Shown here piece by piece: positions 25,991 to 63,741 of a stretch of DNA of 64,000 bases. Every line of letters begins with the position of its first letter. Positions within the stretch are counted from its first letter, which is position 1. Below the pieces are notes generated by a model. It was not told the origin of the DNA. It made no database searches and saw nothing but the letters and a program-made list of their open reading frames with translations. The DNA is taken from contig NC_058368.1 in assembly GCF_018350175.1 (NCBI RefSeq), positions 104,968,001 through 105,032,000 on the forward strand. Reading direction: 5' to 3'. The stretch is from Felis catus (Eukaryota). Both the position numbers and the translations under genes were made by a program.

Positions 25991-26124
25991 GTGTGGAATG
26001 TCATACTCCTATTTTGACTGGTGAGAAATGGATAAAACGATGCTCATGTTCAAAATTGTGTAGTATCTTATACAACATATATACAATAGGTTTATATACA
26101 TATATACCTAGCTAAAGACAAAAC

Positions 26125-26460
26125 AACAGATGGGTGGTTGCCAGACGCAGGAGGTGGGGGTGGGGTGGGAGGGTGAAAGGGCTGAAGATCGTCAAAAGGT
26201 ACAAACTTCCAGTTATAAAGTAATGGGGATATCATGTGTCACATCATGACTGTCACCGTGTTTTGCGTATTTCAAAGTTGCCAATACGTCTTAAAAGTTC
26301 TCATCACCAGGGGAAAGGTTTTTTAACTCCATTCGTGACAGGTGTTAGCAACAGTTATTGTAGGGATCCTTACACAATATACAAACATTGCATTATGATG
26401 TTATACCCCAGAAACCAATAAAATGTTCTATGTCCTTTTTATCCCAAAAACAAAACAAAA
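26125..26460 (+). mobile_element. L1MA-type 3' end fragment
   Basis: ggtggttgccaga...caaaaggtacaaacttccagttataa...cttaaaagttctcatcac. Confidence 0.85.
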
Positions 26461-26468
26461 TCAAAAAG

Positions 26469-26672
26469 TGGGGCACCTGGAAGGCTCAGTCAGTTAAGCG
26501 TCTGACTTCAGCTCAGGTCATCATCTTGCAATTTGTGGGTCTGAGCCCCGCATTACTCTCTGTGCTGACAGGACAGAGCTTGGAGTCTGATTCTGTGTCT
26601 CCTCTCTCTGCCCTTCCCCTGCTCACCCTGTGTCTCTGTCCCTCTCTCTCAAAAATAAACATTAAATTAAAA
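26469..26672 (+). mobile_element. CanSINE
   Basis: SINE head, linker and tail. Confidence 0.92.
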
Positions 26673-29020
26673 ACTACATTTTATGCAGATTTTGCGCACT
26701 GTATTTTATATAATAAGGAAATCAGTTTTTAAATTAAAATGTAGAATTTTGCTCTGGAGGAGGTCAAAGTAGAGATAAATGCATAAGCAAGTGGCATAAG
26801 CAAGATTCCTGTGAGCAGTGCTGCTGTCCAAGCAGATGGTGTGAGATCATGGGCAGGAGCCATTGGGATACTGGGATGCTTCCTGGAGAGGACATGTGCA
26901 GGACACAAAGGATGGCCAGTGGTCTGTAGAGCTCTGCACCGAGGGCCAAGCCTGTGTGAGCACAGCAAGATGAGGAGGGGAAAGGTGAGAAGCCAATGAA
27001 GAAGTAAGGGGGGGGGGTCATTTCATTTTGTTGTACTTTCTCCTAAGTTCACCAGATAATACATTTTTGAGACAAACCAGTTAGTAGCCGTGTAAAAAAA
27101 GTCAGTGGGTGGGGGAGAAGATACCCAACTTGGGAGACATAAAAAAATTCACAATGGGAAATGACCAAGGCCTGAACTGAGGCGCAGTGTCCAGGACAGA
27201 TGAATGGGGGACGAAAGATGTCAACTCAGGAGGAATGTGGGCTCTGCCCTGGAGACAGGTGGGTACCAGCGATACAGATGATCCTCCAGGCCTAAGAGCC
27301 ATTTGTATGGGAACAAAGACCGGACAGCAAATAGCTATGTAGGGATACTTAGGTGGATATTAGCTCTGGTCTTCTGCTGGCTTGAAGGTATTTCAGCTCA
27401 CAAGAGGTCTGTGTTCTATTCTGGCTAGAGATAGTGCAATGTTTGAGTTATGTCCCCTTATTCCACCATTTCTCAGTGCCAAGAGCAACTGTGTGATTTT
27501 TAGAGCTTATTTCAATGATCAGAGACCACCTCGAAAACCTGTTTCCAGCTAGGAAGTCTCCCAGCGATACCAGGCAGAACAGCGTCTTCATCTGGGGACC
27601 CTTATCTTGTAAACCCAAGGATGCCCGCTGGCATTTGCCTTCTGAATTACAAAGGCACTCCAAAGCACCTTCTTGCCTTAGAGCTTCTTCATTTTCTCTT
27701 CCCTCCCTGTAAATCTGGGGTAGGATAAATTAGGAAGAGTGGATTTCTTCAAGCTTCAAAAGGAGAGGCTACAATGGCTGGAGATCACTCCCCGTCACTA
27801 GAGGGCACCAGCTGCATGTAGAATGTCTAAGCGTTCCCGTGCCAAGCTTTCTTCAAATACAACAATACGTCACATTAAAACAAGGCTCATAATGAGGTAG
27901 CTCTCCCACTACCCCATCCTTATTCGCTTCATTTCTGCTACTGAGGTTACAGTGTTTTCAGATTTTTCTTTTAATTCAGCAATCTAATAATACGGATGGG
28001 AGATACGAAGAAGGTATGTTTTTCACAGACTTGCATGCCTACACAGTCTATGCTATCCCTTACCTGCCTCTTCTGTGCTAGATAACGAGTGAAAACCATC
28101 AACTTTGCACATGGCTTTACTACAAATTCTGCAACCAAAGGGTTGGTGTGACAAGAATGTCTCTCCTGGACAGCAACACGGCAAAATGAAATTCCCCACT
28201 TTACGCATTACAGCACAGATGTCTCCAGGAAACCAAGATGACGGGTTCTTCCACGGAGATTTAGCAAAACTGCCCCGACATTTCATTTATGTTACTCTGT
28301 GAGTGACTGCACAGAAATACAGCGGCCCAAGCAAGCTGCTAACGGTCTAGTTTCCTTCTCCCGGCTTTGCCTCAGGAGGCTGACCCTTGTGTCAAGACTG
28401 CTTCAGTTCATTCAAGCAAAATTGGCTCATTGTTTTATCTGTGATGTTTTCCCTAACACGGAGTCTTGCATTTTTTAGGAGGGGGGAAGGAAGTGAGCAT
28501 TTACTACAAAACGATTTGATTCTGTTGAGTGCTGACAGGTCCTCTGTACTGAAAAGAATTGCAAGGACCTGGCCTAGCCTGGGCACATCCATTATCAGGT
28601 CAGGTGTAAGTGCCCTCTGGTGAGAGAGAACGGGCTGTGGGAGCCCTCCGTTAGGGGCTTCACGGCAGCTTCTGTGCATACAGAAGCCTTGTCAGGCGGC
28701 ATCTTTAATCACAGAGTGCTTTGTGCTTTATCCTCTAAAAATGGAAACGAAACCACTGGCTTCTCAATAGAGTGTGTGAGGCTTGATTGATGGGCTAAGT
28801 GAACCCAGGAGAAAGAAATTAGCCCAAGTAGAAGGCAAAAGAGGGATTAAGAAGTAGGAGATTTTCTTGCCCTTTGAATCCTCATTTCTTTTCCAGGACG
28901 GAAGCAAACGAGTTGAAGGGGCCTCACACTATCAGGGCGGGGGTGGCTGGAGGACAGGGTAACATCACATGCTGAGAAACCACTCAGTGCCTGACACTGA
29001 GCTAGGCTTAAAAAACATTC

Positions 29021-29229
29021 TTTTTTTTTTTTTAACGTTTATTTGTTTTTGAGAGACTGGGAGAGAAAAGGGAAGGGTCAGAGAGAGAAGGAGACACAGA
29101 ATCTGAAGGAGGCTCCAGGCTCCGAGCTGTGAACACAAAGCCCGACATGGGGCTTGAACCCACAAGCCGAAAGATCGTGACCTGAGCCGAAGTCGGACGC
29201 TTAGCCGCCTGAGCCTCCCAGGCATCCCA
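29021..29229 (-). mobile_element. CanSINE
   Basis: Reverse SINE body. Confidence 0.93.
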
Positions 29230-29249
29230 GAGCTAGGTTGGGTATCAAC

Positions 29250-29545
29250 TCAACCCTCTTAGAAAGGTAAAATATGATTCCTACTTTATAGAGAAAGAAA
29301 TGAGACTAGATGGATTTTCAAAAACTGTCCCCGGTCATCATGCTCATTTTAAGAACGAAGAGGATAATAAATAACAGCCAGCACTGACCACGTACATACT
29401 CTGTACCAGGTACCACCCTCCGCTCTGATTTTCACAACACCACATGGGAGATTTTATCGCACCCATTTTGTAGAGGGGAAACCTGAGGCTGCAAGGAGGG
29501 AGGTCACTTACCCAAGTACACCACCACCTCCGTCTGACTCAGCCC
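29250..29545 (-). mobile_element. Two MIR relics
   Basis: ctactttatagagaaagaaatgagact and cccattttgtagaggggaaacctgaggct cores. Confidence 0.7.
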
Positions 29546-29761
29546 TGCTGGCACCCTCAGGCATGCTCCCGGCTGTACCGGCTCTTTCTACAATTAAAAA
29601 CAACCCCACCCCCAACCCCGCCAAAAAAAAAAAAAAAATCCTGATAAACGAATTCACAGGCATACGCTACAAAAACTGTTTAAGTGAGATACACCATGAA
29701 TATAACTTGTCAGGGGTCTGGCAAATACGCAGCCCCCTGCTTCTAGCCACGCAAAAGACTC

Positions 29762-30199
29762 TGTGACCAAACACAAGTAGAAAATTTAGCATGCTTTATC
29801 TTCCACTTAGAGATTCCTATCCCTACCATAAGAAATCCGGGGACACAGAAGAAACTTTCTTGCTTAAGTGGGGTTGAGCCCCTCCCTACGGAATGTGGTG
29901 GAGACCTCCTCCGAACAAAGGAAAGCGATGGGGTCCAATCAACTCCTATACACGTCCCCCGTAGCTCTGACCCCAGTCTGCACCTTGGAATGTGTCCAAT
30001 CAGACTATACGTCACCATATATGGGAGACAAAGAAGTAGAAATTGCATAAAAGGCTACACCCGGCTGTGCTCAGGGCTCAGTTTTTAAGGTACGACCCCT
30101 CCCCCCCGCCCTTGACCCCATGCCAGCATGATGAATAAAGTAGCTTCCTGGACAGAAAAGCCTCCGTGTCCCGTCCCTCTGTGGGAGAGCCCTGCTACA
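29762..30199 (+). mobile_element. Solo ERV LTR
   Basis: TGT...ACA ends; CCAAT at 29935 and 29996; TATA-like cataaaa at 30046; AATAAA at 30134; about 440 bp; TSD not evident. Confidence 0.75.
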
Positions 30200-30449
30200 G
30201 AAGGACAGCACCTTTTACTTACTGGCACCAACCATGCCTCAGCGACGTCACCTCGCGCCTCAACCTCATCTGCGACACGGCTTAGCCCACGAAAAACCAG
30301 CCCGATCAGGTTCCCCATAAGCAGCGGGGTAATTGCTACCATCATCTGCACCTGTAAACGAGGCTTTCTGAGCACTTGGGCGATGCGTGGGCGGCGGCAT
30401 TCAAGGTCGTGGGCCAGGCTTCCCGAGGCCCTTTGCACGAGTGAAAGTG

Positions 30450-30620
30450 TGGTTGGAGAAAAGATGTCGCTTTTCAGTCAGACACTTATGGGCCGTGGGC
30501 TGCTTAAACTTTCTGTGCTTCACTTTCCTCATGGTAAGATGACGCTACAAGAGTCCCTTTCTGATAGTCTGGAGAAGATCAGGGGAGAAACAGCGCAACA
30601 GGTGCGAGCTGTTATTGTTA
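30450..30620 (+). mobile_element. MIR relic
   Basis: gcttaaactttctgtgcttcactttcctcatggtaagatg. Confidence 0.6.
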
Positions 30621-31987
30621 GAAGACCAAGGGAGAGCACCTGCCCAACCGAGGGTGTGACGCTCCTGGGGAGAAAGCTAACTTCCCTAAATGCGTCTGAG
30701 AAGCCATTCTGGTTAAGAGTTAGATTTTCTTCCCTATAAAGTTTATTTGGATGAAATCATATTATCATGGGATAAAGTATGATGAAGCAACGAAGGAAGG
30801 AATTGACTACTATGGAGGAGAAGGAATGAGGTTTCTGGCAAAAAAGCAGACGGCGCCCTTCCCTTTGGAATAGCCAGTCTGTGAAGCCACATCAGATCCT
30901 GTCTGTTGAAAGGCCCCAGGCTGCCTGGGAAGGTGTGCAGGGGACGCAGGCCAAGTGATGACAGCGGGGGTGTCGAGGAGAAAGTGGGGTCCGTATAAGG
31001 GACGCTGTGTATTAATATATCAAGATTCCACATAATCCTTTAAATAAACACAACCTGTTTCCATTTGAGTAACTGTCTTATTCCATAAATGTTTAATCTG
31101 AAGAAATAATAGATATTTCTCTGGAAAAGTACGGAGTAATCACACGCCTCTTCCTTGATTTCTCGGACCAGGTTCCCTTCCTGGGAACCGCACTCCTGCC
31201 TGGTGGAAGATGGGGCAGGAAGGTCTTCAGATGTCAAGCCCGGGGTAGCGGAGTGGGACAGTGGGTGAGGGCAAGAATAAGATGGGGAAGGGGAGAGAAT
31301 GGCATTTAGAAGGGCAGAGAAGCTGCTTTTCTCAACACTGTTCAAGATACTCCCCATTCCCAGAGGCTAATCAAGTCCTAGAAGGGGGAGGGGGAGATAG
31401 AGAACCCGCCACCAATAAAACTTAGCGTATGAAGTACAGAATGAAAAGAAAGAACATCTGTTCGTGTGTGTGCGTGCGTTTTTGTATGAAAAACAGAAAA
31501 AGTATTCTCTGCACATTAGTAGGTGGTGTAGCTTTTTAGATGCGGTTGGGCATATTAGTCATTCAGAGGACTCTGACATCTGTTGGCACGTCATAAATTG
31601 CATTAGTTACTTTTTGATTTCTACTAAAAGTGAGTTCACTGGAAGCATGGCAGGTCAGACTGAGCCAAGGGAAGGAATCCTTATAGTTGTTGAATAACAC
31701 ATGGAAAACTCTCATCTCAAAGCAGGAGCTCAATAAATGTTAGTATATTTCTGTTTCCCTTTCTTTCCTAAAAAAGGATGAAAAAGAAAAGAGCGGGTAG
31801 GTGGGAGAAGAGGGAGAAGAAGGAGGAAGGAAGAAAGGAAGCTAAAGAGAGAAAGGAAGATAATTTTCCCCCAAAAGACTATGGCAGCTGAGATCTGGAG
31901 GAAGTTTGTGTGTTTAAGTATTGATGAAACATGTCAGGGAATTTTCCACAGTATGTCCTATTAGTAAAATCCCATAATGTAAGGAGT

Positions 31988-42062: not shown

Positions 42063-42176
42063 CTTTGAATTTATGTGAATATGAAGTGTCTCTAAGCACT
42101 TTTCTTCACTTTACCTATTGCCCTTAGAGTTCAAAGCTGAGCAGTTCAAAGATTCTTCCTTAGAAAGTTGAGGAGG

Positions 42177-42956
42177 TCATCAGGGAAATACAAACCAAAA
42201 CCACACTGAGATACCACCTCATGCCAGTCAGAGTGGCTAAAATGAACAAATCAGGAGACTATAGATGCTGGAGAGGATGGGGAGAAACGGGAACCCTCTT
42301 GCCCTGTTGGTGGGAATGCAAACTGGTGCAGCCACTCTGGAAAACAGTGTGGAGGTTCCTCAAAACATTAAAAATAGATCTACCCTATGACCCAGCAGTA
42401 GCACTGCTAGGAATTTACCCAAGGGATACAGGAGTGCTGATGCCTAGGGGCACTTGTACCCCAATGTTTATAGCAGCACTCTCAACAATAGCCAAATTAT
42501 GGAAAGAGCCTAAATGTCCATCAACTGACAAATGGATAAAGAAGATGTGGTTTATATATACAAAGGAATACCACTTGGCAATAAGAAAGAATGAAATCTG
42601 GCCATTTGTAGCAATGTGGATGGAACTAGAGAGTGTTATGCTAAGTGAAATAAGCCATACAGAGAAAGACAGATACCATATGTTTTCACTCCTATGTGGA
42701 TCCTGAGAAACTCAACAGAAGACCAGTGGGGAGGAGAAGGGGGGAGAGAAAAGTTACAGAGAGGGAAGGAGGCAAAACATAAGAGACTCTTAAATACTGA
42801 GAATAAACTGAGGGTTGATGGGGGGTGGGGGAGAGGGGAAAGTGCATGATGGACATTAAGGAGGGCACCTGTTGGGATGAGCACTGGATGTTGTATGGAA
42901 ATGAATTTGACAATAAATTTCATATTAAAAAAAGAAAAAAAAGAAAAGAAAAGAAA
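42177..42956 (+). mobile_element. Young 5'-truncated carnivore/felid L1 (ORF2 C-terminus + 3'UTR + A-tail)
   Basis: Uninterrupted ORF 42221-42706 ([33 protein letters not shown]...) matches the L1 ORF2 C-terminus; 15-bp TSD agaaag(t/c)tgaggagg at 42162-42176 / 42957-42971. Confidence 0.97.
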
Positions 42957-43534
42957 AGAAAGCTGAGGAGGGCAAAAGGTAGTGACTAACTATGTTTCCA
43001 TAGTCTTGTACCTGTCACAGAAACAGGTGGAGGTGGTCCATATTATTAATAGGCTGGAACTCTTTAATCCAGATTATCTACAGATTAACTCCAGGCAAAG
43101 AAGATCTCTGGAAAGTAGAAAGCTGATTACTGCTAGTAAATAAGCTGACTCTAAACTCTGCTCAATGCCTGAAAAAACCTCTGACTTCAAACTAGTTGGT
43201 TCCTTTGTTGATGTTTTCTGCCACTTAGAAGCACAGGCTTGGACACACTGATTTATAAGATGAAAAGACTCACACCAGGTCTGGGGCAACTTGCTTTTCA
43301 TATGGTTGTAATTTTCTGTAAAACTTTTCAGAAACTCCTGGGGGTTATTTGAGGGCTGAAATGATTACTTCTCAGCCTTAATATTCTTTCAGTCGCTATT
43401 CTCATCACACCCAAAGGAGGACCATATCAGGTGCACGGTCCAGGTCCCTGTATTAGTGTTATGACAGTTAAAGATGGCTGGGTATGGTCTCACTTTTGAA
43501 AAAGTCTGTGAGTCTCTCTTGCATTGGAAGGGAA

Positions 43535-44077: not shown

Positions 44078-45054
44078 TGTTAAGGAGATGGCAGACGCTC
44101 TGTGAAATAGACCAAGAATTCAGACATTTTCTTTGCAGGCAGTTCAAAGTGCTGTTGTATTTCTCTTCTCCCTCCCTCCCTCACCCCAAGTTTTGCTATG
44201 GAAAAGGGGAGAATTTACCCCGTAAGCCAAGTGAAGGGAGCTTCGAGGGAGCACGCAAATAGTGGTCTTTGTGTCTCGCACAGCCTGTCCCCAGGCTTGA
44301 CTCTCTGGCTAGGTCAGCCTGGATGTGGCAGAGGAACTGGAGGGTGTGCCTCCTGGAGAGGGAAGGAGCTGGAAGGGTAGAAGTAATGGTTTCCCTGGAT
44401 CAGTTCTGGGCCTCACATGAGAGAGCCAGCCTGCCCACAAGGATAGTCCGGATGAGTAAAAGGACCCTAAGGAGGTATAGACCTCTGAAGCCCAGAGGTC
44501 AACGGGGTGATAGGTGGCCAGGAAAAAGGCACCATGGCCAAAGGCTCCAGCTAGATTTTCCTAGGAACCTGTTGACATACCTACCAGAAAGAAGCCAACC
44601 TCAGATATGCCCCCTGCCTAAAGGGCACTGACACCAATTTATATCTGTGCCTTCTCTCTCTCCTCTACCCTTGGGCCTAGTCACGGAGCAATGAGAAACA
44701 GAAACGGCGGGGGAGAGATGGGAGGACAAGAGAGAAGAGGCCCAACATTTGCCCCTCTCCTTCCTCATGGCAGAATTCCAGGGTAGAACAGAACCGGATG
44801 GAGGGATAAGGAGAGGCTTTAACTCTGAATGAGTATGGAGTTTTGTTATTCTCCTAGAACAGACTGACCTCTATAATTTTCAGCTGGACTGGACTTAATA
44901 ATGTGTGAAGGTAACCAGAGAACTTTTATTATGTAAGCATTATTGGAAACCAGAGACATCCCTAAAATTTTATTTCAGGATCGGGAGACAGCAGGTGAGG
45001 GAGTTTAATCGGCAGAGAAAAATAAAAGGAAATTGGTTTCTAGATCAGTTAACA
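44078..45054 (+). mobile_element. Probable ancient long LTR (MamGypLTR-like)
   Basis: TGTTAA...TTAACA ends; AATAAA at 45021; gagaggcttt...ggagtttt...ctggactggactt motif recalled from mammalian Gypsy LTRs. Confidence 0.4.
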
Positions 45055-46680
45055 AGCTCGTTCCATGACCTGAACACACATTGAGACTGTGTGGCTTTGG
45101 GGTTCCAAGGAAAAGGTCGACTGCCAATGACCGGTGATGGTATTTGACTAACTTGCATTCTCTCTGAGACAGGGTCTGTAAATTGCTTAGCAGAGCGATG
45201 CAGCAGAATCTCTATAAACAATAGTATTAGTATGCTAGTTATCTTTAATGGTTATTACAGGGCATCTGCCTTAAGACATCTCCAACTAGACTCTCAACCA
45301 GCAGCTGAAGATGCAGAGAAATCAGGCCTCCAAAGAGATATCTCTGCAACCATCCATCCCCAGGGTAAGGAGGGGTGGGGACTCTACCAGCTGGGGCTTC
45401 CCTGGGAAAGTGGTTCAAGTGATGAGTTAGACTCCCGGGAGGTACCATACAGAAGGATTGGGCTATCTTGATTTGGAATCTCTAGTTCATAGTCAGTGGT
45501 GGCTCAAATTATTAACCTGTCTGAACTTCAGTTTTCTCATGCTTAAAAATCCCAAAATAATGAGTACCTACTCTAGGGGGATTAATACCTACTTAACTGG
45601 GTTGTTGTGGTACACTGTGGATATTCCATTTATTTGCTTCTTTCTCCTTCACTTAGCTGTGTGTCTCTTTTCATTCTTAATACCCAGCATTCTTGAACTT
45701 TCCTGCTCTGTGCCCTGTTTCCTCTACTTATTTGGGAAAGTAGTCTAGTAAACTAATCTCTAATGGTAGAAAGGAGTGGCAACTGCTTAGACTGGAGATT
45801 ACCTTTTAACAGAAGTATGTGGAAGATGAAAAGTAGAGAAGAAATCTCAGATCCTGAACTTTCCCACTGGTGTCACCCTGATGGCACAGGGTTAGGGTTG
45901 GAAGGACCACATTAAGCACCCCCATGAGGTTGGTGCTCCACAGATGGCAAACCTTTTTCCCAATGTGGGAATTTAGCTCTTACTTACAGTTGATGACAGC
46001 TGCCTCTTCTGTAAGCCTCCGAGCCTGGCACTGAGCTGGGAGCCTTGCGTCAGGATCTTTCTGCATCTTTGCAACATCCAGAGGGGAGGTAGGGTTGCCT
46101 CAGAGAGGTGCCTATTCAAACGTGAAACCAGACAGACTTCAAAGTAGTCCTTCAACCCTGTCACAACCCCATGAGAAGACGGTACTGGAGTGATTCAAGC
46201 AATACACGTGTGGGTGGGGAAAGCAAAAAGATGAAAGCTTTGCAAAGAGGAGCAGAGGGGGCTGGGGAAAAAGACGAGAAGTCCCAAACTTAAAATGCTT
46301 GAGATTGTCCTTGAACTCATTATCTTCCTTCCTTGTGAGCTAATACCCATTTCTGTTGGATCAGCACACAAGCTACTTTCCACAAATCTGCCAGGTACTC
46401 GACTGGTGACAAGAGGTCAAAGCGTAATGCATGCGCACACTCTTTAATCTGGAGCTGGCATTTGGTGGTGTTTGAGGGGACTTAACTTTAATTAATTGAC
46501 TCCTTAGGAATAGAGCTGACAGTTTTCCCCTCATGGATTTAAGAAAGTTGACATTTTTTCCTCAAAGAACTCTACAGTGCTCTAAATCCCTGGGCCTGTG
46601 GAGAAGGCTATTATAAAATAGACATCTTCTCTTTTAGAGGGTCTCTCTCTTCACACAGCAAACACGGCGTTACTCATCTG

Positions 46681-50630: not shown

Positions 50631-52113
50631 GAATAATATAAAAGGTATAAAGCTTATATTTTCTGACAGTAATAAATCCAATGCAAAAGGGTTTTACGAT
50701 AGTGGTATAACTCAAATCCTTTTTTTTTTTTTTAACTATTCAATGTGTTAAGTTCAGCCTAGAATATTCTGCCAGTTGTAAGAAACTAGACATTGGCAGA
50801 TATCAAATCGAGCGTTATCATCTTCCATCAAGTACTGTATATAAGAGTATAGGAGACATTGGCTAAGCCAGGTCATTCCTGTGTCACAAAAGCCAGCTGA
50901 GTGAATTCTACATCAGTTTTTATCCATTATCACCCCGTATTTTTACGTATCACAATGCACAGGCTCCAATCTTCATTTTTTGCGGTTATGTTAGGAATTC
51001 ATGAGATCAGTACCCATGTTTTCAACACTTTGAACTTGCACTAGGACCACAGAAATACTTCGACTCCCCCTTGTCTTACTTGGTTGAAGAAACATGGTCA
51101 CCACCATGGGAACTGGGACCTCATATTTAGATTCCAAAGTGACATAAACTTTGAAATCAGACAAATTATGTTAGCTTTGACCAGGACAGACTCTTGGATT
51201 CCGATCAATGGTAATAGGTTTGTCTTTCTGAAATTTCTTTGATATTTCCCAGGAGGAACACAGAAGTACCTCCGAGTGATGCACACAAAAACCAGTCATT
51301 GTGCCTCAGAAGGGCAGCTCCGTGGGGATGGCATTCAGACACTTTCAACAGCTCTGTCATTCCCTCTGATCTCTTTCAATGCTGTTCTGAGTGACCAGGA
51401 TTACCAAAGGGGTGAAACAATTGAGGCAGGCACACAATCAGCATTTGTCTCCGGGGAACAAAAAGATTTGTTTTAGATTAGGAATCCACCAAATCATGCT
51501 TTTCCAAAAACTTGTGAACTGTTTTACTATAACATCTATTGTTTTAGATAGGAAAGGCTTTTTAGCATACAATATGTTGCCGACAAGTGTACAATGTACA
51601 ATTTAGATGATAATAAACAAGGCTCCAAATCCTTTTATGGTGCAGAGCATTTTTTTAAGCAGCATTTGGCAGTATAATCGATGTTGTTTTCACAACTTAA
51701 AGTAAAAAGCATTTGATGCAAAACCGCTGTTGCAGAATGACATTGTATTTTAGTGCTTTCTCCAAAAATGAACATCGTTAAAAATAACTTTTAAAAGAAA
51801 TGATTAAAACCCCAAAGATATAAACTTACCTTAAAGTAGTTAAATGATGGATATCTGTATATTTTAATCTACATCCCAAATTTGGAGATAATGAAATAAA
51901 AAGCAAAGAATGTTCGTGGTTGGACAAATAATTACATATTTTATTTTCTAAAGAGAGGCTTTTTCAAGTCTTTATCTCTTTGAGGCTGAAGTGACTGGTT
52001 GGAAGATGGGCTTGCATATTTATTTGAAAACCTTCAGGGCTGTTCTCCATTCAGCTTCCATTTGGCCCCAAGTCAGGGGCTCTCTGACTAAAGTTGCTGC
52101 ATTGTTACTCAGA

Positions 52114-52135
52114 ATGCTTAAAAACACAACAAAGG
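52114..52135 (+). CDS. Candidate exon A (coding part; in-frame upstream ATG at 52006, or internal acceptor at 52037)
   Basis: ATGCTTAAAAACACAACAAAGG|gtaagg. Confidence 0.4.
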
Positions 52136-52369
52136 GTAAGGCTTGGGAACCTTTTAAATTGCTGAATATTATCAGCAGGGCAAGTAAAATGTTTTGGGTG
52201 CTTCCCACAATACCTTTAAAGCTCCCTGAGGGGAAGGGGGACGTGGAAAGAGACTACAGGATGGGAAAGAAAGAGGAGACAAATGGTTCCCTGCTAGACA
52301 GGGCTAGTTGTCGCCATCTGGGGAGTGACTTAAGAACTCTTTACTGTGAGTTTGTGTGTGCGTGCCTGC

Positions 52370-52400
<31 letters not shown>

Positions 52401-53456
52401 TGCGCGCGCGTGCTGAAGGTATAGATTTAAGCTTGGTCTTTATTGCTCAGGAGATCACTATGAAGAAGATTGGTATGACACATACATACATTTTTATTTT
52501 TACTTTTTAAAGTTTATTTATTAGAGAGGGAGGAGGGGCAGAAAGAGAGAGGGGGAGAGAGAATTCCAAGGAGGCTACAAGCTATCAACACAGACCCCAA
52601 TACGGGGCTTGAACTCACAAACTGTAAGATCATGACATGCCCAGAAATGAAATTGAGAGTTGGATGCTTAACTGACTGAGCCATCCAGCCGCCCCCATTT
52701 TTATTTTTAATATTAAAAAAAAAAGGCCTCAATGAGCTTGGGTAATAAGGCTGGGGCCATAGATGCCAGCTCAGGGAACCCAGATCTGTCTTCTTAGATT
52801 CACCTTGGTCAGGGAGGCACCTCTTCCCTATTAACAATGATCCGGGTAAGGGTTTCCCTTTTTTCTTTCTTTACCAGTGAACTCCTAAGGGATTGTGAGG
52901 AAATGACCTTGAATGGTCTCTCAAAAGAAGATGGCAGGTGGTTCTGTTCTCTGTTTTCCAACCTCTGTCCTTTGCTCTCCTCAGACTCTCTGAAATTTGT
53001 CACTTTTGTCATTTTCATTTTCAGAAAGTGACAGTTCCCTGGAGATTTTTCACTCCACATCATCTCCTGACCTTTCTCTGAGAGGTTGTTTCTCATTTTG
53101 CTGCCAGCTTGCTGCATGGCCCTTTTTTATTTGCAAGTTTTTAGGGTGAATACTTTCTTGTGTGAACTTTCTGTACCTCAGGCTGTATTTTACACTGGGG
53201 CCAACTGTCCCGGGTAAAAAAATAAAATAAAATAGAGAGAGAGAAACTTACAACACGGATAAGATGAAACACTGACCTACGTTTTCCTGCAAACTCTGGA
53301 ATTCTACCATTTGGACTTTCATATCTCAAATCTTAGGCAAATTTCACTTTTCATGATTTCTCTTTATGTTTTGTAAGCACTTTCATGGAAACTGAAGAGA
53401 TAGCTGCTTCAAACTAAAGAGTCTGACATTCTCTTAACGTCCTTTTCTCCTTAAAC

Positions 53457-53498
<42 letters not shown>

Positions 53499-56400
53499 TA
53501 CGAAAGCCTAACATTAATAGATGATCAAAACCATGTGCATTTATATTTCACCCAACCTAGTTTGAAGCATCACTAATATAAGTAAGATACTAAGGAAGAG
53601 TCCTTCATTTAGGGATAAATTCTGACATAAGAAGGGAGAAAAAGAGTTTGGAGAGTATATGTTCCTGACAGCACAAAATTGTTCTTGAAGTTTTAATGAT
53701 GGAGAAAATATTTGACAGGTTTTGATTTAAAATAGCGAAATCACCTTACTTGTGGAAATGTGGTTGATTTGTATTTCAGTTGAATTACCTGATTCATTCC
53801 AAAGCAAACAGCAAAATATGTATTAAGTATGGGGGGAAAAAAACCCCTGGCAATATAATGTATGTATAAGGAAGAAAAGCTCACTGAGTCCCTTCCTTCT
53901 TGTTTTAGAAACTTCTATGCAGACCAAGGTAAGCAAAGGTAAGTCTGAGGAATTCTGAAAATTAGGACACTATTCAAGGAAGCCTGACTTACATATAAAA
54001 CTTCAGTTTATATATGTTCTGGTAAGTATAGTTCCTGTACTTAATCCAGTTTGGAATGTATTCTTATCTCTCTAAAATTTTTACTTCTCTGAAATCATCT
54101 ACTTTGCCTGAGATGTTATGTCAAAACATTTTTCCATCATGGGATTTTTCAGATTATTTGGGTGAGTGAGGGCATTTTTTCATCCTCCATTTTCTGCTTT
54201 TAAGTGAGGAGCAACTGGCAAAAATGGCCCAGGCTAAGGCCTTTTTGGTTTGGAAAAGTGGGGAAGGGGGTGGGAACCCTGTCACTGTTCTAAGAATCGA
54301 ATATATTCACCCAAAGTAAAAGTGATAGAAGCGGTTTCCCCTCTTTATTTTCATTCATTCTTTTAGGAGCTTGGTAAACGCATTAGTTTCTTATTGCTGC
54401 TGTAATCAATTACCACAAACCCAGGCACTAAAACAACACAGGGTTATTCTCTACTCTTCGGGAAGTCAGAACATTGTCATTGGGCCAGCCTCAAGGTTTT
54501 GATCAGGCTGTTTCCTGCTGGAAGCTTGAAGGGGAGAATCCCTTTCCTTGCCTTTTCCAGCTCCTTCTCTGCTGCCTGCTTTCCTTGCTCACGGCTCCTT
54601 CCTCCACCTTCACAGCAAGAGGCAGAACGTCTTGTTTCCTCTCTGACTCTTGCTTACAGCTTCTCTCTCTGACTTTGACTCCCCTGGTGCCTCTTTGGTG
54701 AGGACCCTTGTGATTTCTGGGCACAACCAGGTAGTAAGGATAACCTGCCCATATCAGGGTCCTTAACGTAATCACATCGGCTCAGTCTATTTTGCTACGT
54801 AAGGTTATACGTTCCCGGGTTCTGGAGGTTAGGACGCAGACACCTTTGAGGGGCCATTATGTATCCCATTCTGTACACCACAATAAACAAATACTGTCTT
54901 GTCTTTTCTCGCTGGGCTTACTTTTGAACACGAGGGCAGCAGGATGCCTTAGAGTTATCAGGCACTCTTCTCATAACTGAGGAGAAGAAGTTTAAGCTGC
55001 AGCCACTGTTATAATTTTAATATTTACACCATCTTGTCTCACAGGGGGTCTCTCTGCTGAAGGTTTATTTATAGAATCTGGGCTTAGGAGCTTCGCTCTT
55101 AAACCTATACCGCTGTTTGTAAAAGAGAATGAGGGCAGGAATATCTAGATGCTGTGAAATAAATTTTAGGAGTGCTTTACTTTTTTGGATTCCTTCCCAG
55201 CAAAAACATTTTCCATTTTCCATTTCCCATTTATAGTCTGTGCCATTTTGAAAATGACCTGTCAGGGCTTCTAGAGGCTGGCCAATGAGTTTCAAATATT
55301 CTTATTGATGGGCTAGATTAATTTTTACACCAAGATTTTTTCCAAAAGCATTAAATCAAGATGCAGGTACTTCAGTCATCTGTTCAGGTTTCACTCAGGT
55401 ACCACATTTGATGTTGATTTTGTATTCAGAAAAGGGGGGGGGCATTCAATGAAAGGGTTCCTTGAAGCAAGATAGGGACAAAAGAATTCCCAAGATTCTG
55501 GCAAACAGCAATGAAGGTTAGAGTGGTCCACAAAGGGCAAAATAGGCTGAATGGTCACAGTCAGAGAACTATACCCCAGACTGGCACAGGACATGACCCC
55601 ATACACTCAAGGTTATTTCAGAAGCGCGGGGGGGGGGGGGGGCTGTCAAGAAACACCTTCAGCCATCACTGCCCCACAGTCTCCCAAAGGTAAATCTATA
55701 GGTGTAACTTCTAGGTTTTTCATTCAGTTCCAGAGCAGCCCCTATGCTGGAGTTTTATTCTGCTGACATGGACTTCCATAGGGCATTGGAAGTGCACTCC
55801 TTCCCCAGCCGGATTCTCTGTGGAATCAACACGGGGAGCTGCCGAAGGTTCCAGAGTAAGGGTAAAGACCAGAAGAGCTTCTACTAAGTGCCCATATTTG
55901 ATGTCACTCATCAAGTTGCCAAAGATGTCTTTCTCCCCACTGAGTGTTATCACAGCTTTTGTCGTAAGGAAATAAGCCCTGGAAAGGCCTCTGTTAGGAT
56001 TTTTAAATCTCAATAAATCTGTCTGCATTTCGTTTTAATAAAAAAAAAAAATTTCAAATTAGTCATTAAAATGCCAACCAAGCCAGTTATCATAAATACT
56101 AATCTGAAAGTTTATTTAAGGTAAGTAAGATTTTTTTTTTTAACCCTTCAGCTTATAAAGTGACTCAGGGATATGATTTTCAAGAAGTCAGGAATGTGTT
56201 TTCCTTGTAGTAAAGTACCCATTTTTCTTGAAAAATATCAATATTTTTAAATGTCTGTCTATAAATTAGTTCACACAGATAGTCTTATTTCATTTTTAGT
56301 TAATCTAAGAATTGGATTTTTTTTTTTTAATATTTACTTATTTTTGAAAGAGAGAGACAGAGAGCGTGAGGAGGGGAGGGGCAGAGAGAGGGAGACACAG

Positions 56401-59400
56401 AATCCTAAGCAGGCTCCAGGCTCTGAGCTGTCAGCACAGAACCCTATGCAGGGCTTGACCTCATGAACCACCAGATCATGATCTGAGCTGACGTCAGACA
56501 CTTAACTGACTGAGCCACCCAGGGGCACCTAAGAATTAGATTTTACTTGTTATCATGGGTATTTGCTAATTGCTTATGAAAGTGCAAATATCAGGGGCTC
56601 CTGGGTGGCTTCACCGGGTGAGCATCCGATTTTGGCTCAGGTCATGATCTCGCGGTCTGTGAGTTCGAGCCCCGTGTCGGGCTCTGTGCTGACGGCTCAG
56701 AGCCTGGAACCTGCTTCGGATTCTGTGTCTCCCTCTCTCTCTGCCCCTCCCCTGCTCACACTCTGTCTCTGACTCTCAAAAATAAATAAATATTAAAAAA
56801 AATTTTAAGCGCAAATATTAAATTCATGCCTTCCATAAACAAAACAAAACACTTTTTTTGTTGTTGCAATCCACAGTAAGAGGTACATTTTACAGTGTAT
56901 CCAAATATATACATAGTATACATACACATTTACATAGTTTTGAAACAAAAGTTAATGAAAACTAATTTCCCTTCTTGCAGCTGTACTGTGATATTTCTAT
57001 TTTATTCTGTTTCTTTAAGAAGCCACTTGTTATGACCCACTAAATGGATTTCATGACCAGCAGTATGAAAACCACTGTGTTACGAAATGATACAAAAACC
57101 TATTTTGAGTTAGAAACAACAAAACAAAACAAAACAAAACAAAACAAAACAAAAACACATGATCCTGAGGAAGTGAAATGAATTATTGGAACACATTGTA
57201 TTATAAAAAGATTAAAAGTTAAATCCTTGAATCATGAAGATTATGGTTGAAATGCTTTTGTTAAAATTATTTTTGTTTGATTTATAATGACTTCTGAAAG
57301 AATGATATTGAGTGACCCAGACTATCAATAAAGATAATTATTTTTTTAAAAACTGCAGCGGTGGTTTTGCCCCGCCCACATTGTTGCTACGGTTTCCTCT
57401 GGAATCTGTTGTACTGCTTATAAACACCTGTGGTTCCATTTTTAGCATGAGGATTCCATCCAGAATGTCTACACAAGGTAAATGCATGTATCTAAGGGAA
57501 TCAGATGTTACTATGTTTTTTCTTTGTGGCCAGCAACCCCTGTCTCCCTCCCCAAAAGAAGTTACAAGGTCTGAGTATTTTTATTCTGGAAAAATACCAA
57601 GATTGTCAGTGTTCTTCTGTTGGGTCAGAGGAGAAGACATGACTGGGAAAGGTAAGGTTTAGACCAATGAAAGATGGAGTTTACTTTTGCAGGAGACCTG
57701 AATGGGCGTCTAGAAAAGCGTGGAATGACCATCTTGAGAACCTGAAGCCCAGAAAAGATTAAGATGCTTTTTTATTCTAGAATTCAAATGGAAAATAAGA
57801 CTAAACTGGGAAATAAGCATAACAAACCAGTTGACTTCTTATTTTTCCAAAGGTGAGTACTTCAGTGCCATCAATATCTATAATCATTTCAAGGTTTTTC
57901 TCAACCTCTTTGATGCCTCTGATTTGGAAGTGCCCCAGGCACATCCTCATTACCCTGCCTGCTGCCTGCCCCGGCTGCTTCTGGAAAGAAGCGAGGTTTG
58001 TAACTGTAGTTTGGTGGTTGGTGGCCCATGGGTATTTTGTAACCATGTATAAGGCATTTCTGCCAGAGAGACCACATTTTTCTTACCTTACTCCTCCGGC
58101 ACATTTTTACTGAATATAAATAACTTCAATTCATCTTCACTTTTATATTGCCTTAGTTGCTGCTTCCAAATGCATTTCACATCAACTGAAGAGTTTTCTA
58201 AATGGGTGACCTTCACATCCTTGTACGGGAGAAAATACAAAATGAGACCTGGGATTACCATTTTAAATGGAATTGCTATAGTAGAGAGAAAAATAGCTCC
58301 TCGGGGCCCTTGAAGCTGAGTTGATTAGTCACAAAGAGCTAGAGGCAGAACACATCTCCTCCTGCTATTTTAGCTGAATTTCTTGACTGGTTTTTAGGTT
58401 CTAGGCTTTAAAATGGAAATCCCCAAAGCAAAGAATGGTGTGTGAAGAATGAGAACATTTGTTCAGCGTCTGGGCCTTCAGATCTGCGCTCATTCACGTG
58501 GCCCAACAATACCATCCATTCTTTCGCCAAATAGTCATTGAGCACTACCTATGTGCCCGGTTTTTATACACACACACACACACATGCACCCACGCACACT
58601 CATGCACGCACACACACCACCTATATTTTACATAGGTATATAAGTATCTTTCAGAAAGTGCTAGAGAAAACAACAGTATGTCGAAAGAGGAAAAAGGAGT
58701 GTGGTAGGCAGGCAAGCTCGCTCAATTAGGGTGACCTGTGACCAGAATCCTAAAGTAAATGAGAAGAAACGTAAACGTGTGTAAACCCACATGTGGGAGC
58801 TGCTTGGCATGTTTAAGGAACAGCAGGACGGTCCCAGTATCTGGAGCTGAGTGAGTGAGTAGTATGGGATGAGGCCACAGAGATAAGGCCTTAACCTCCT
58901 TCTCTTCCTCTTCCCTCCCTTCCTCCTTCCTTCCTTCCTTCTGTGTATTCATTTGCCACACAGTTAGATTCATTTGTTTCAATTTGCTTCCAGTGTCAAT
59001 TTTATTTTTCTGTCCATATTGATTTAATTCCATTTTCAACTAGGTAGGATATTAAGATGCTTTCGAAACCCAAAACCATGCAAACTGATATACTCCGAGA
59101 AGTGTCGCCCCCTCCTGTCTCCCTTCTACCGTCCCTGCCTTATGGACCACCAGCTTCATTATTTTCTGGGTTTTTATTATTCCTGTGTGTTTTGTTTGTT
59201 TGATTTTTTTTTGGGGGGGGGTAAGGATAAGAAAACAGGTGCATATTTTCTTATTTTCTCTTCTTTGTTATGAAAATTTTGGCATTTTATTTTTTATTTT
59301 TTTATTTTTTTTTTCAACGTTTATTTATTTTTGGGACAGAGAGAGACAGAGCATGAACGGGGGAGGGGCAGAGAGAGAGGGAGACACAGAATCGGAAACA

Positions 59401-62400
59401 GGCTCCAGGCTCTGAGCCATCAGCCCAGAGCCCGACGCGGGTCTCCAACTCCCGTGACCTGGCTGAAGTCGGACGCTTAACCGACTGCGCCACCCAGGCG
59501 CCCCAATTTTGGCATTTTAAATATGGTCTTCTGTACTTTGCTTTTTTTCCACTTGCTAATATCTCCTGGAAATCACAGTTGAATAGACTCCCACCGGGTG
59601 TAGCACAATAGTTTATCTGATTAATCTCCTACTTGAACATTTAGGAAGTTACCAGCGTTTTACAATTATAAGTAATGCCGAAAACGAGTAACTCTGTGCA
59701 TATTTTGTATTGATGAATGTGTATCTTCAGGATACATCCCCAGAAGTGAGACCTGCTGGGTCAACAGCAAATCCGTTTGTAATTTTGTTACTTGTCCTCC
59801 ATTGGGGTGATATCATTTTATATTCCCAGCAGCAATGTATGAGAGTGCCTGTTTCCCCAAGGCCTTACCAAGAGACTATATTGTCAAGCTCTTGAATTTT
59901 TGCCAGTCTGTTGAATGAGAAATAGTATCTCAGTGTAGCTTTAATTTGTACTCCACTTATTGCTAAATGGAACATCTTTTCATATGGTTTTAACAGACAT
60001 TTTTAGATCCACTTTGTGAATCATCTGTTCATATCTCTTGCTGATTTTTCTATAGAATATTTTCTGTCAATTAAAAAAACTTACCGTGGGGGGGGCCTCG
60101 GTGGCTCAGTCAATAAGCGTCCAGCTCTTGATTTCTGCTCATGTTACGATCTCATGGTTCGTGAGTTCGAGCCCCACGTCGGGCTCTATGGTGACAGCAT
60201 GGAGCCTGCTTGGAATTCTGTCTCTCCCTCTCTCTCTGCCCCTATCCCTGCCTCTCTCTCTAAAAATAAATCAACATTTAAAACATTTATTGTATATTAG
60301 AGATGATAGCCTTTTTTTTTTTTCTGAGATCTATGTTGCAAACATTATCTTGCAGTTTGACACTTGTCTTTTGATTTTGTTCTTGGTGTTTTTGTTTGAA
60401 AGTAGATCAATTCCTGGACTATCTAGTCAATTCCATTGATCTTTCTCTCAATTCATGAACCTGGATGTGTTTTGAAGGTAGAGATGATAGGGTTTGGTGA
60501 TGAATTTTATGTGGGGCATCAGAAAACGAGGAGTGAGGCATGACTCTTAAGATTTTGACCTGAACAAGTAGAATGTTAGAATTTCCACTAGGGAGAATTC
60601 TGTTTTTGTGGAGAATACCAGGAGTTCTGCTTTGGCGATTTGAAATCTGAGATGCCCGTTAGACTCACTGGTGGAGATGTGAGAGGGCAGATGGCAGCAG
60701 GTATAGAATTTGGGAAAAGGCAGGACATAGACATGAAGGCGTAGCCACGTAGAGACAGAATTTAAAACCATAAAACTGTTAGGAGGTTTTGATGAAAGCA
60801 CTATGTCCACTTTGGGGATACATATCCTGATATCTTGAGGGTTTAAGTCACTCCCAAGGAAAGCGCACTTGTGGGCCATGAATCTAGGGCTTGGCCTCTG
60901 TATTAGTCACCCAGGGCTGCTGTAACAAAGTACCACTGACTGGGTGGCTTAAACAGCAGAAATTTGTTTTCTTCTAATTCTAGAGGTTGGAAGTTCGAGA
61001 TCAAGATGTCAGTGAGGGTGTTTTCTTCCGAAGCCTCTCTCTTTGGTTTGCAAGTAGCTGTCTTCTCCTATGTGTTCACACAGGCTTTCCTGGATAGCAT
61101 GTCCTTGTCCTAATATCTTCTTCTAAGGACGTTGGTTGTATTGGATTAGGGCCCATGCTGATAGCCTCAGATTAACCTAATCACCTCTTTATTTTTGTTT
61201 TTAAAAATGTTTATTTATTTATTTTGGGAGAGAGATTGAGAGTGAGATTGAGAGTGCATGTGCACATGGGTGTGTGCAAGAGAGAGTGGGGAGGGGCAGA
61301 GAGAGAGGGAGAGAGAGAATCCCAAGCTGGCTCTATGCTGTCAGCGCAGAGCCCAACGTGTGGCTGAAACTGACGAATCATGAGATCATACCTGAACTGA
61401 AACCAAGAGTTGGACACTTAACTGACTGAGCCACCCAGGGACCTCTAACATAATCACCTCTTTAAAGACCTCATTTCCAGATACAGCCACATTCTGAGCT
61501 ATCAGGGGTTAGACTTTCAACAAATGGAATTTGGGAGTATGCAATTAACCCCATAACACTCCTCTTTCCATGATATCAACTTGTTACGTGTTTGAGAGGA
61601 AATAGTGATTTAGAGTCTAAAGGAACTTATTGTTTCATAAAAGACTTAAAATGATGATTACTTTGATGCTCAGGAGTTAACATTTCTCCTCTATTTGGAG
61701 AATATTTAGGTGGATGATATAAACACAATTGATAAGTAATATGATCCCACAGTCCTCAGATCTGCTCTCAGGGAGAAGGCCTTGTCCTCTCCAGGAAACA
61801 CAAGATCTGGAAAAGCCCCTGACATAGAATTATCACAGCAGTAAATTTGGGTCTTGTCTGGGGGAAAGAAGGAGGAACATATTTTACAATTGGTGCTAAT
61901 GTTTATCTCAGAGAAGTTGTTCTTTGACTACTAACTAATGCGTATTAATGGAAGTCAGAAACATCTTTTAGGTAAACAACAAACAAACAAACAACAACAA
62001 AAAAACATATCCTAAACTCCATCCATACACTTTCAGTTAGAAGTAACCCCAAGGAAACTTTGCCTTTCAGCTCTAGTCTTTAGTTATATATAGAAATCAG
62101 GAGCCTAGACTTCTAAATTGTTGTAATTGATTTGTTAAACATTTGTATTTTTGGAAGTACATTAAGAAGAGAAGAACCAATCTGTCTGGGCCTCATGGAA
62201 TGTTTCCATAACGTCTCCAAGTCACCTTTACTTGTAAAGGTCCTAAAAGTACTTTTCTGCACTATTTTGTAATCTGTTTTTCAATATTTTTTGCTACTGG
62301 GTTATTATTCACTAGACTACAATGTCCTGGTGTTGGAAAACATCTTCATAAATTACAAACTGCAACTCATCGAGATTCTACAGGAGACAAATTGCTTCAA

Positions 62401-62540
62401 GTTTGCCTTCCAAGAATTTATAGTTATTTCCTAGTAACTTTGTCACTGACATCTGTGATAATGTTTTTGGAATTAGAATATGTTCTCTAACATTTTTGCT
62501 TCTCAGAATAAATGATCTGGATGGAGAAAAATCTGCTTGA
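52114..62540 (+). CDS. Candidate unidentified multi-exon small gene or decayed pseudogene (10 exon candidates)
   Basis: Chain of canonical AG/GT-bounded short exons in repeat-free DNA; spliceable to 118 aa (MLKNTTKDSPWSGRHLFPINNDPETSMQTKVSKDYLGAW...FSKE) or 105 aa (...HEDSIQNVYTRIQMENKTKLGNKHNKPVDFLFFQRINDLDGEKSA); no homologue recognised. Confidence 0.4.
52367..52413. repeat. Alternating purine-pyrimidine (CG)8(TG)n(CG)4 tract
   Basis: 47 bp of uninterrupted alternation. Confidence 0.92.
52490..52696 (-). mobile_element. CanSINE
   Basis: Reverse SINE body. Confidence 0.9.
52798..52845 (+). CDS. Candidate exon B (48 nt)
   Basis: ctgtcttcttag|ATTC...TCCGG|gtaagg. Confidence 0.45.
53458..53497. 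repeat. (TG)n microsatellite
   Basis: About 20 units. Confidence 0.95.
53909..53938 (+). CDS. Candidate exon C (20 or 30 nt; tandem donors)
   Basis: ccttccttcttgttttag|AAAC...CCAAG|gtaagc and ...CAAAG|gtaagt. Confidence 0.5.
54153..54161 (+). CDS. Candidate 9-nt microexon D (the true acceptor could lie further upstream)
   Basis: atttttcag|ATTATTTGG|gtgagt. Confidence 0.35.
54367..54373 (+). CDS. Candidate 7-nt microexon E
   Basis: About 30-nt pyrimidine-rich tract ...cattcttttag|GAGCTTG|gtaaac. Confidence 0.25.
54378..54881 (-). mobile_element. MaLR solo LTR (MLT1C/D-like)
   Basis: attagtttcttattgctgctgtaa...ggggagaatccctttccttgccttttccagct...ttctggaggttaggac. Confidence 0.85.
55782..55855 (+). 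CDS. Candidate exon F (74 nt)
   Basis: gctgac...cttccatag|GGCA...CCAGA|gtaagg; open in all three frames. Confidence 0.35.
56063..56120 (+). CDS. Candidate exon G (58 nt; alternative acceptor at 56087)
   Basis: Consensus donor TTAAG|gtaagt; weak acceptor tttcaaattag. Confidence 0.3.
56316..56530 (-). mobile_element. CanSINE
   Basis: TSD ctaagaatt(g/a)gatttt. Confidence 0.93.
56593..56805 (+). mobile_element. CanSINE
   Basis: TSD aag(t/c)gcaaatat. Confidence 0.93.
57446..57477 (+). CDS. Candidate exon H (32 nt)
   Basis: ttccatttttag|CATG...ACAAG|gtaaat. Confidence 0.45.
57781..57852 (+). CDS. Candidate exon I (72 nt)
   Basis: cttttttattctag|AATT...CAAAG|gtgagt; open in two of three frames despite being AT-rich. 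Confidence 0.55.
59290..59504 (-). mobile_element. Young felid CanSINE with an internal deletion of about 13 nt
   Basis: TSD aattttggcatttta; aactcccgtgacc versus aactcacggaccgcgagatcgtgacc in sibling copies. Confidence 0.96.
60088..60280 (+). mobile_element. CanSINE
   Basis: SINE head, linker and tail. Confidence 0.9.
60899..61558 (-). mobile_element. MaLR solo LTR (MLT1A/B-like) with an internal SINE
   Basis: tgtattagtc...gggctgctgtaacaaagtaccactgactgggtggcttaaac...caattaaccccataaca. Confidence 0.9.
61190..61446 (-). mobile_element. CanSINE inside the MLT1 LTR
   Basis: TSD taac(c/a)taatcacctcttt. Confidence 0.92.
62507..62540 (+). CDS. Candidate terminal exon J (coding part)
   Basis: Branch point ctaac (62487) + atttttgcttctcag|; all frames stop within 34 nt; AATAAA at 63010. 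Confidence 0.45.
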
Positions 62541-62613
62541 AGACATTAGGCTGGAATAGAGGCTGAGACGACTTCGATTTTAGCTGATATTTAAATATTT
62601 TAAAAAAATACCA

Positions 62614-62833
62614 TTTATTTATTATTTTTGAGAGAGAGAGATAACAAGAGGGGGAAGGGGCAGAGAGAGAGATTGAGAGAGAGAGAGAGAGAGAGAGGCA
62701 CAGAATCTGAAGCAGGCTCCAGGCTCTGAGCTGTCAGCACAGAGCCCGACGCGGGGCTCGAACTCACGGACCGTGAGATCGTGACCTGAGCCAAAGTCGG
62801 ACGCTTCGCTGACTGAGCCACCCAGGTGCCCCT
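62614..62833 (-). mobile_element. CanSINE
   Basis: Reverse SINE ending gagccacccaggtgcccc. Confidence 0.94.
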
Positions 62834-63741
62834 TGAATAATTTTTTTTAAAGTATAAGTTTGGAGGGCTAGTAAGACAGAATATTCCAATTGCCTTGGGT
62901 TGCTTAGGAAAGTGACACTGGGGCAGGGACGGTATTTGGAAAATGGCAGCCTATCAGCTGATATCATGGTGGGTAATGGACAGAAGAATGTATAGACACT
63001 GTAAAAGGAAATAAACACAAATCAGACCAAAATATCAATGTTGATCAGTCAATGAAGGTTAATTCATCCTTAAAAGTAAGAAAATACACCTTACTAAGAG
63101 CAAAATGTGAGAAAGAAATAACTTCTGATCACACGTACTGCCCGTCTTCGTTGGATGGACCTTCATCTTTAAGAACCAACCTTTGGTTCTCTCTTCTGTG
63201 TGGTGCCTAGGCTTCACTCACAAACGTTAGCTCCGCCTCGAGTTATTCAGGTAGTCACAAAGGTACACGGCCAGGACTGAATATTTCAAATGCGGACACA
63301 ACGCTGCATCCCTGTTTTGGCATTTCTTTTTTTGTCGGTAAACAAAAGTCGCCGCGGCTGCCGGAGACCTCTGGAAACGCTAGCGGATACCAATGACTTG
63401 AAGACTCTGCTAACGAAACCACCTCACTGGCCGTGTGCTCAGTGTGCCCTTTAGGAGCTGTGTTCCTCAAATGAAATGGTTTCAGAAGCATCAGGCTTCC
63501 CAGACAGGATGCCCCTCTCTCCTGTGGGCCTGACTCTGCTTCCTGTCCTTTGTCACCGTATTTTGGGGGAAAGTCATTCAGGACTCTCCTGTCCAGATGT
63601 TTTTAGTTCACTTGATTCTGGCTGCTCCCTTTCTGGCAAATTCTGAAAACATCTCAAACCCAACCTCACCCACCCCAACGAAAACGTCAAACAGGTTAAA
63701 TACAGGTCTCCCTGGCTCTATTGTGATCAGCCCTTCCTGCG

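What the first reader, a model, noticed from the sequence alone, without database searches (positions are those of the whole stretch)
52006..63015. Hidden small-exon gene: ten short exon candidates splice into a continuous unrecognised ORF
Seen: AG/GT-bounded segments lie in the unique DNA between repeats, all on + and mostly with near-consensus signals. They are at 52114-52135 (ATG...|gtaagg), 52798-52845, 53909-53938, 54153-54161, 54367-54373, 55782-55855, 56063-56120, 57446-57477, 57781-57852 and from 62507. The last has a CTAAC branch point and a downstream AATAAA at 63010. Joining all ten gives a stop-free 118-aa ORF: MLKNTTKDSPWSGRHLFPINNDPETSMQTKVSKDYLGAWALEVHSFPSRILCGINTGSCRRFQIIKMPTKPVIINTNLKVYLSMRIPSRMSTQEFKWKIRLNWEISITNQLTSYFSKE (154 aa from ATG 52006). 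The ORF track cannot show this because every exon is under 75 nt. Inference: an uncharacterised, fast-evolving gene or spliced lncRNA. Caveat: I chose the splice sites by eye, so an open path could partly arise by chance.
Basis: partly seen in the sequence, partly recalled or inferred. Interest (0 to 1): 0.75.

Follow-up and report, generated by a model that had tools for sequence, protein, structure and literature searches.

The report
Possible spliced non-coding RNA, cat
A cluster of short exon-like segments in a cat-family genome may be a weakly conserved spliced non-coding RNA or just a chance grouping of splice signals; the proposed 118-residue protein has no support and appears broken in another mammal.

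Summary
The coordinates are right: all 9 AG and 9 GT boundaries exist and the joined frame is open for 118 codons. Four of eight internal exons have good signals at both ends; three (54153, 55782, 56063) have weak acceptors and one (54367) a weak donor. The cluster is the best splice chain in the window, but only modestly so (scan p 0.03-0.18; 2% of Markov nulls). The open frame is weak evidence: 29% of null sequences give an open chain as long, and 70 of 192 alternative paths are also open. No listed RNA run holds the last exon beyond about its SINE share. No reads were laid, so splicing is untested.

The parts
52006..52135 (+). Candidate first exon, or internal exon from acceptor 52055 or 52113; in-frame ATGs at 52006 (A at -3, G at +4) and 52114; donor 5.7 bits; no CpG island
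52798..52845 (+). Core candidate exon, 48 nt, good signals at both ends (2.3 / 6.3 bits)
53909..53938 (+). Core candidate exon with two strong donors, 53928 (20 nt, 7.1 bits) and 53938 (30 nt, 8.1 bits), which give different downstream frames
54153..54161 (+). 9-nt microexon candidate; weak acceptor (-1.7), donor 4.6; doubtful
54367..54373 (+). 7-nt microexon candidate; weak donor (-0.6); abuts an MLT1-like LTR (recognised by eye); doubtful
55782..55855 (+).
56063..56120 (+). 58-nt candidate exon; strong donor (8.1) but an A-run in place of a pyrimidine tract (acceptor -9.2); doubtful
57446..57477 (+). Core candidate exon, 32 nt (1.4 / 4.0 bits)
57629..57651 (+).
57781..57852 (+).
62507..63030 (+). 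Candidate last exon: strong acceptor (6.8 bits), CTAAC at -20, antisense SINE at 62613-62854, AATAAA at 63010; the 3' end is a guess

Best explanation
The locus is a real but weakly constrained multi-exon RNA polymerase II transcript on the + strand that does not encode a conserved protein: a lincRNA, or the remains of a decayed gene. Inferred mechanism: a non-CpG promoter near 52.0 kb makes a low-level, tissue-restricted RNA. U1 snRNP recognises the strong donors (52135, 52845, 53928/53938, 57477, 57651, 57852) and defines the short core exons. The weak microexons and the 56063 segment are skipped or variable, and the RNA is cleaved after AATAAA 63010. The open frames are a by-product of short exons, free choice of splice sites and the known low stop density of spliced lincRNA exons. 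Shown: signals, their scores, the open frames, lack of constraint on one exon in one relative. Inferred: transcription, splicing, tissue, 3' end.
For: Best open splice chain of the window: 45.3 against at most 31.9 in 107 non-overlapping windows; reached by 2.1% of 5285 nulls. Donors cluster on one strand in gene order and end in a strong terminal acceptor with branch point and AATAAA. Strand skew of unique DNA is +0.066 +/- 0.027, the sign expected for + strand transcription (the expected sign is recalled). Non-coding side: no homologue in three frames; exon 57781-57852 differs at 7 of 25 residues against 16 of 106 in intron (Fisher p 0.15); inferred stop in the relative. lincRNA exons are stop-depleted, and a 5% false-positive ORF cut-off is 368 bp, above this 354-nt ORF (PMC7086181, abstract and section 15).
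Against: No RNA evidence: the 14 RNA or RNA-guess contig rows hold 0.26-0.45 of the words of 62490-63040, about the 0.41 share that lies inside the SINE. Scan-corrected clustering is weak (p 0.03-0.18; 0.26-0.99). The strand skew does not differ from upstream DNA (+0.036 +/- 0.014; +0.065 at 40-52 kb). Exon GC (0.406) is barely above intron GC (0.379), and stop-triplet density is 15 of 334 against 5.7% in introns. Most candidate exons are very short.
Confidence: 0.42

Rival explanations
1. Chance cluster of pseudoexons in intergenic DNA; nothing is spliced here, and the reader picked an extreme of background.
For: Scan-corrected p 0.03-0.18 and 0.26-0.99. A 13-exon, 432-nt open chain exists at 24-30 kb. 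Objectively chosen exons elsewhere in the window show a similar excess of open frames (118 against 106 +/- 5). No RNA run holds the last exon. Pseudoexons may outnumber real exons tenfold (PMC1935003, passage).
Against: The chain score is 13 bits above any non-overlapping window and in the top 2% of nulls; five donors of >=7 bits within 6 kb against 0.6 expected; ordered layout with terminal acceptor, branch point and poly(A) signal.
Confidence: 0.35
2. A fast-evolving, lineage-restricted small protein gene, read through a different exon set and frame than the reader's: skipping 56063 or 57446, reading 57781-57852 from 57782, and ending ten codons into the last exon (about 90-125 aa).
For: Many such paths are open. 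That frame of the 72-nt exon is also open in the relative, and an alternative donor would keep its length. Amino-acid change in the exon is higher, not lower, than in the intron (28% against 15%, not significant), as in positively selected reproductive genes (recalled). Objectively chosen exons have 20 open frames against 15.2 expected (p 0.019).
Against: No annotated protein in that frame among 1.84 billion representatives or among proteins of 83-265 aa. The frame is open in P0003 by construction, since it was called as an ORF. The relative has 4 extra bases at the exon's 3' end if the GTGAGT donor is used. No Pfam or Atlas signal.
Confidence: 0.14
3. The reader's exact ten-exon transcript encodes a functional 118- or 154-aa protein.
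For: Frame open through all nine joined exons; 12 of 20000 fixed-boundary shuffles; GC3 75% in this frame of the 74-nt exon; stop in the last exon, so compatible with escape from NMD; good Kozak context at 52006.
Against: Needs four weak sites used together. No homologue. Inferred stop, possibly two, and five other amino-acid changes against one synonymous change in this frame of the 72-nt exon in the relative. Chance gives such ORFs in 29% of nulls.
Confidence: 0.05

Closest known systems
Multi-exon intergenic lncRNAs of mammals (PMC7086181, abstract and section 15; PMC4338330, abstract)
   Same: Intergenic, several exons with good donors, long pseudo-ORF below the 368-bp threshold, no protein homologue, exon body not conserved above intron
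   Different: No transcript shown here; exons unusually short (7-74 nt); exon GC hardly above intron GC
Pseudoexons, i.e. background splice-site pairs (PMC1935003, passages)
   Same: Short AG/GT-bounded segments with fair signals and no evidence of use
   Different: Here they cluster on one strand with a terminal acceptor and poly(A) signal, scoring in the top 2% of nulls
De novo genes arising from lncRNA loci through gain of U1/splice signals (PMC9911349, search listing and start of abstract only)
   Same: Strong U1-type donors and an open spliced frame that is disabled in an outgroup would fit
   Different: Neither transcription nor translation is shown; the disabling change is inferred from one unnamed relative
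SRRM4-dependent neural microexons (features recalled)
   Same: 9-nt and 7-nt segments are in the size range
   Different: No TGC upstream of either acceptor; 7 nt shifts the frame; no known host gene

Membership tests
   but reached by 28.8% of nulls
   Inferred stop at codon 57840-57842 in P0003's source; one exon, one species, inferred from the protein of another frame
Protein-coding gene (any frame) | Exon more conserved than flanking intron | tested here: not met
   7 of 25 against 16 of 106 residue differences, exon 57781-57852 only
Protein-coding gene (any frame) | Homologous proteins or domain | tested here: inconclusive
None. Queries were single exons with flanks.
Protein-coding gene (any frame) | Translation (ribosome footprints, peptides) | not testable with these tools
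   no such data offered
Multi-exon lincRNA | Spliced transcript longer than 200 nt is observed | not tested
   No reads were laid; the run search gave no RNA holder above the SINE share
Multi-exon lincRNA | Intergenic, no overlap with a coding gene or structured RNA family | tested here: inconclusive
   No Rfam match in the window, no Pfam hit below E 0.2 for 22 window peptides; a long intron of an outside gene cannot be excluded
Multi-exon lincRNA | No conserved coding frame | tested here: met
   one exon in one relative
SRRM4-type microexons | UGC enhancer shortly upstream of the acceptor (recalled) | tested here: not met
   No TGC within 30 nt upstream of 54153 or 54367
WD40 / beta-propeller repeat | Match to a WD40 repeat profile | tested here: not met
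   Best of 576 path translations -1.8 bits, below shuffles at up to 6.1 bits; PDB hit E 0.35 only

The most novel reading that the evidence does not exclude
An unannotated, felid- or carnivore-restricted micro-exon gene that encodes a fast-evolving protein of about 90-150 aa with no known relative, either born de novo from a lncRNA (frame disabled in an outgroup) or under positive selection, and missed by gene callers because every coding exon is under 75 nt.
Probability: 0.15. Interest if true: 0.6.

Novelty: new member of a known kind. Interest (0 to 1): 0.17.

Why it matters
If it is a lincRNA or chance, it matters little: mammalian genomes hold thousands of each. It then serves as a caution that open frames built from hand-picked short exons are common. 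If a protein were shown, it would be an orphan or de novo gene made wholly of very small exons, with an outgroup in which the frame is closed, and so a testable case of gene birth from a spliced RNA and of an annotation blind spot.

Tried and rejected
Whole-genome search: none is held for this window. Protein searches of the 74-nt exon in two frames: 3 candidates and none at E<=10; no candidate. The tool calls such blanks weak evidence. P0002 (E 3.6e-13) is a 13-fold perfect tandem repeat from a metagenome whose summed weak matches inflate the score; rejected. Pfam: 0 families for 13 of 13 window peptides and 7 of 9; the other two, upstream ORFs, had E 0.24-0.25, below cut-off. ESM Atlas: no usable hit for two peptides. 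PDB: one E 0.35 hit to a CNH blade and none. The WD40 idea it prompted failed against a profile built from 7 plasmid WD40 repeats. Metagenome contigs: no relative of P0003 and no match to a 20-base exon pattern. Rfam: 0 matches. Hairpin in the 74-nt exon: z -0.81. Run search: six rows of unknown kind hold 0.51-0.64 of 47 words and 14 RNA or RNA-guess rows hold 0.26-0.45; none was laid, so they are no evidence. Known small-exon genes (CLNK, GCSAM, TEX43, CCDC192, MEIKIN, troponins) were compared from recall only, with no resemblance. Literature: no paper with ZNF608 + GRAMD3 + gene desert; nothing relevant in the listings; supplements were not opened. Earlier notes: none near, none in relatives, none by words.
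Full report
Setting. The window is cat-family genomic DNA. The first 23 kb are mostly old L1 and SINE sequence (20-22 kb not read), and no recognisable coding gene was found elsewhere. Earlier notes place it 104.8 Mb after a PTPN18 finding and 24.4 Mb after an ARHGEF7 finding on the same piece, and 83-90 Mb after CAB39L, ATP7B and SOHLH2 findings. From recall this is about 105 Mb on cat chromosome A1, syntenic with the gene-poor part of human 5q23.2 near ZNF608 and GRAMD2B; that placement was not tested. No whole genome is held.

Observation. All ten segments, their AG/GT boundaries and the 118-codon frame are as described; ATG 52006 is in frame. The branch-point motif, the AATAAA at 63010 and the absence of repeats from the exons hold. 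A position matrix from recalled splice frequencies rates 7 of 9 donors at >=4 bits and 6 of 9 acceptors at >=1.4 bits, but only 52798, 53909, 57446 and 57781 are good at both ends. Acceptor 56063 is worse than two thirds of the AGs in the window, and donor 54373 is weak.

Is the cluster more than chance? Strong donors are enriched at 52-58 kb (7 against 1.0 expected at >=6 bits; 5 against 0.6 at >=7). Corrected for scanning both strands of the window, p is 0.18, 0.041, 0.033 and 0.073 at four thresholds, and 0.26-0.99 for acceptor-donor pairs at five settings. A dynamic program that finds the best open chain of 5-80-nt exons scores the region 45.3, against at most 31.9 in 107 non-overlapping 6-kb windows; 2.1% of 5285 third-order Markov nulls reach it. 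The signal cluster is thus suggestive, not decisive, especially in a scan of very many windows.

Is the ORF more than chance? With boundaries fixed, 12 of 20000 shuffles stay open, and 70 of 192 alternative paths are open against a null mean of 0.85. With free choice, 28.8% of nulls give an open chain of >=352 nt and 46.9% give nine or more exons; a 13-exon, 432-nt chain exists at 24-30 kb. Exons chosen by score alone show 20 open frames against 15.2 expected (p 0.019), but the 79 such exons elsewhere show a similar excess (118 against 106 +/- 5). The 70 open paths give at least three different frames for the 74-nt exon and two for the 72-nt exon, so the sequence does not pick one protein.

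Homologues. Only contiguous stretches were searched. The 72-nt exon in the frame from 57782 found two of 1.84 billion representatives: a tandem-repeat artefact (P0002) and P0003, a single unnamed Logan ORF. P0003 is collinear with 57667-58120, introns included, so it is orthologous genomic DNA of another mammal and not a spliced product. Searching with its exon part found only itself among proteins of 83-265 aa. Pfam, Atlas, PDB, Rfam and metagenome scans were blank or insignificant, and a WD40 resemblance failed a profile test.

What the orthologue shows. In the exon, 7 of 25 residues differ; in the flanks, 16 of 106 (10 + 23 + 73 codons). The last 16 codons of P0003 were left out of that count because a frameshift there breaks the register. 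The difference is not significant (p 0.15) but runs against purifying selection. Of the other changes five alter residues and one is silent. The relative also has four more bases at the exon's 3' end, which shift the frame if the GTGAGT donor is used but not if an upstream GT is. The residues around both splice sites are compatible with their retention, as expected at this low divergence. This is one exon in one species, read through a protein sequence.

RNA. A run search with 62490-63040 listed 24 runs: 14 RNA or RNA-guess contig sets at 0.26-0.45 of 47 words, six of unknown kind at 0.51-0.64, and four unindexed raw-read runs. About 0.41 of the words lie in the SINE, so the RNA rows need nothing beyond SINE sequence. 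No reads were laid, and junctions remain untested. Strand skew in the putative introns is +0.066 +/- 0.027, the right sign for + strand transcription but no higher than upstream. There is no CpG island at the 5' end.

Reading. The most likely account (0.42) is a low-level spliced non-coding RNA, or a decayed gene, using the core exons. Multi-exon lincRNA exons are stop-depleted, 11.6% have ORFs of 300 bp or more, and a 5% error cut-off is 368 bp (PMC7086181, abstract and section 15); selection on such loci acts on splicing signals more than on exon bodies (PMC4338330, abstract). Chance is nearly as likely (0.35): pseudoexons may outnumber real exons tenfold (PMC1935003, passages). No paper on this locus appeared; it cannot be named in a search, and an existing automatic ncRNA model could not be checked. 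Interest 0.17.

Noticed in passing
window 44979-44994, 45301-45364, 49489, 50609 (+): Further strong + strand donors upstream (7.9, 5.7, 7.2, 8.2 bits), one closing a 16-nt AG/GT segment; they could be 5' exons of the same unit
   Followed up: partly
window 29700-30400: CpG-richest stretch of the window (o/e 0.66-0.69, GC 55%) with CCAAT, TATA-like and AATAAA motifs, resembling a solo LTR (recalled pattern); no convincing target-site duplication; overlaps a 207-codon open frame at 30116-30739 with no Pfam hit
   Followed up: partly
window 42164-42960 (+): 3' end of a young L1 with a 180-codon open frame resembling the ORF2 C-terminus (recalled), preceded by a long TCTT/CCTT tract
   Followed up: no
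window 56321-56802: Two SINEs in inverted orientation 34 nt apart (224-nt arms, 76% complementary) just downstream of the 56120 donor; would form a long duplex in a pre-mRNA
   Followed up: no
window 16460-16890: SINE with an internal perfect 70-nt tandem duplication
   Followed up: no
window 33368 (+): U12-type donor motif GTATCCTTT with no partner looked for; probably chance
   Followed up: no
window 62507-62512: The first six bases of the candidate last exon are themselves AATAAA
   Followed up: no
window 24264-29266 (+): 13-segment, 432-nt open splice chain, score 31.9; used as a background example
   Followed up: partly
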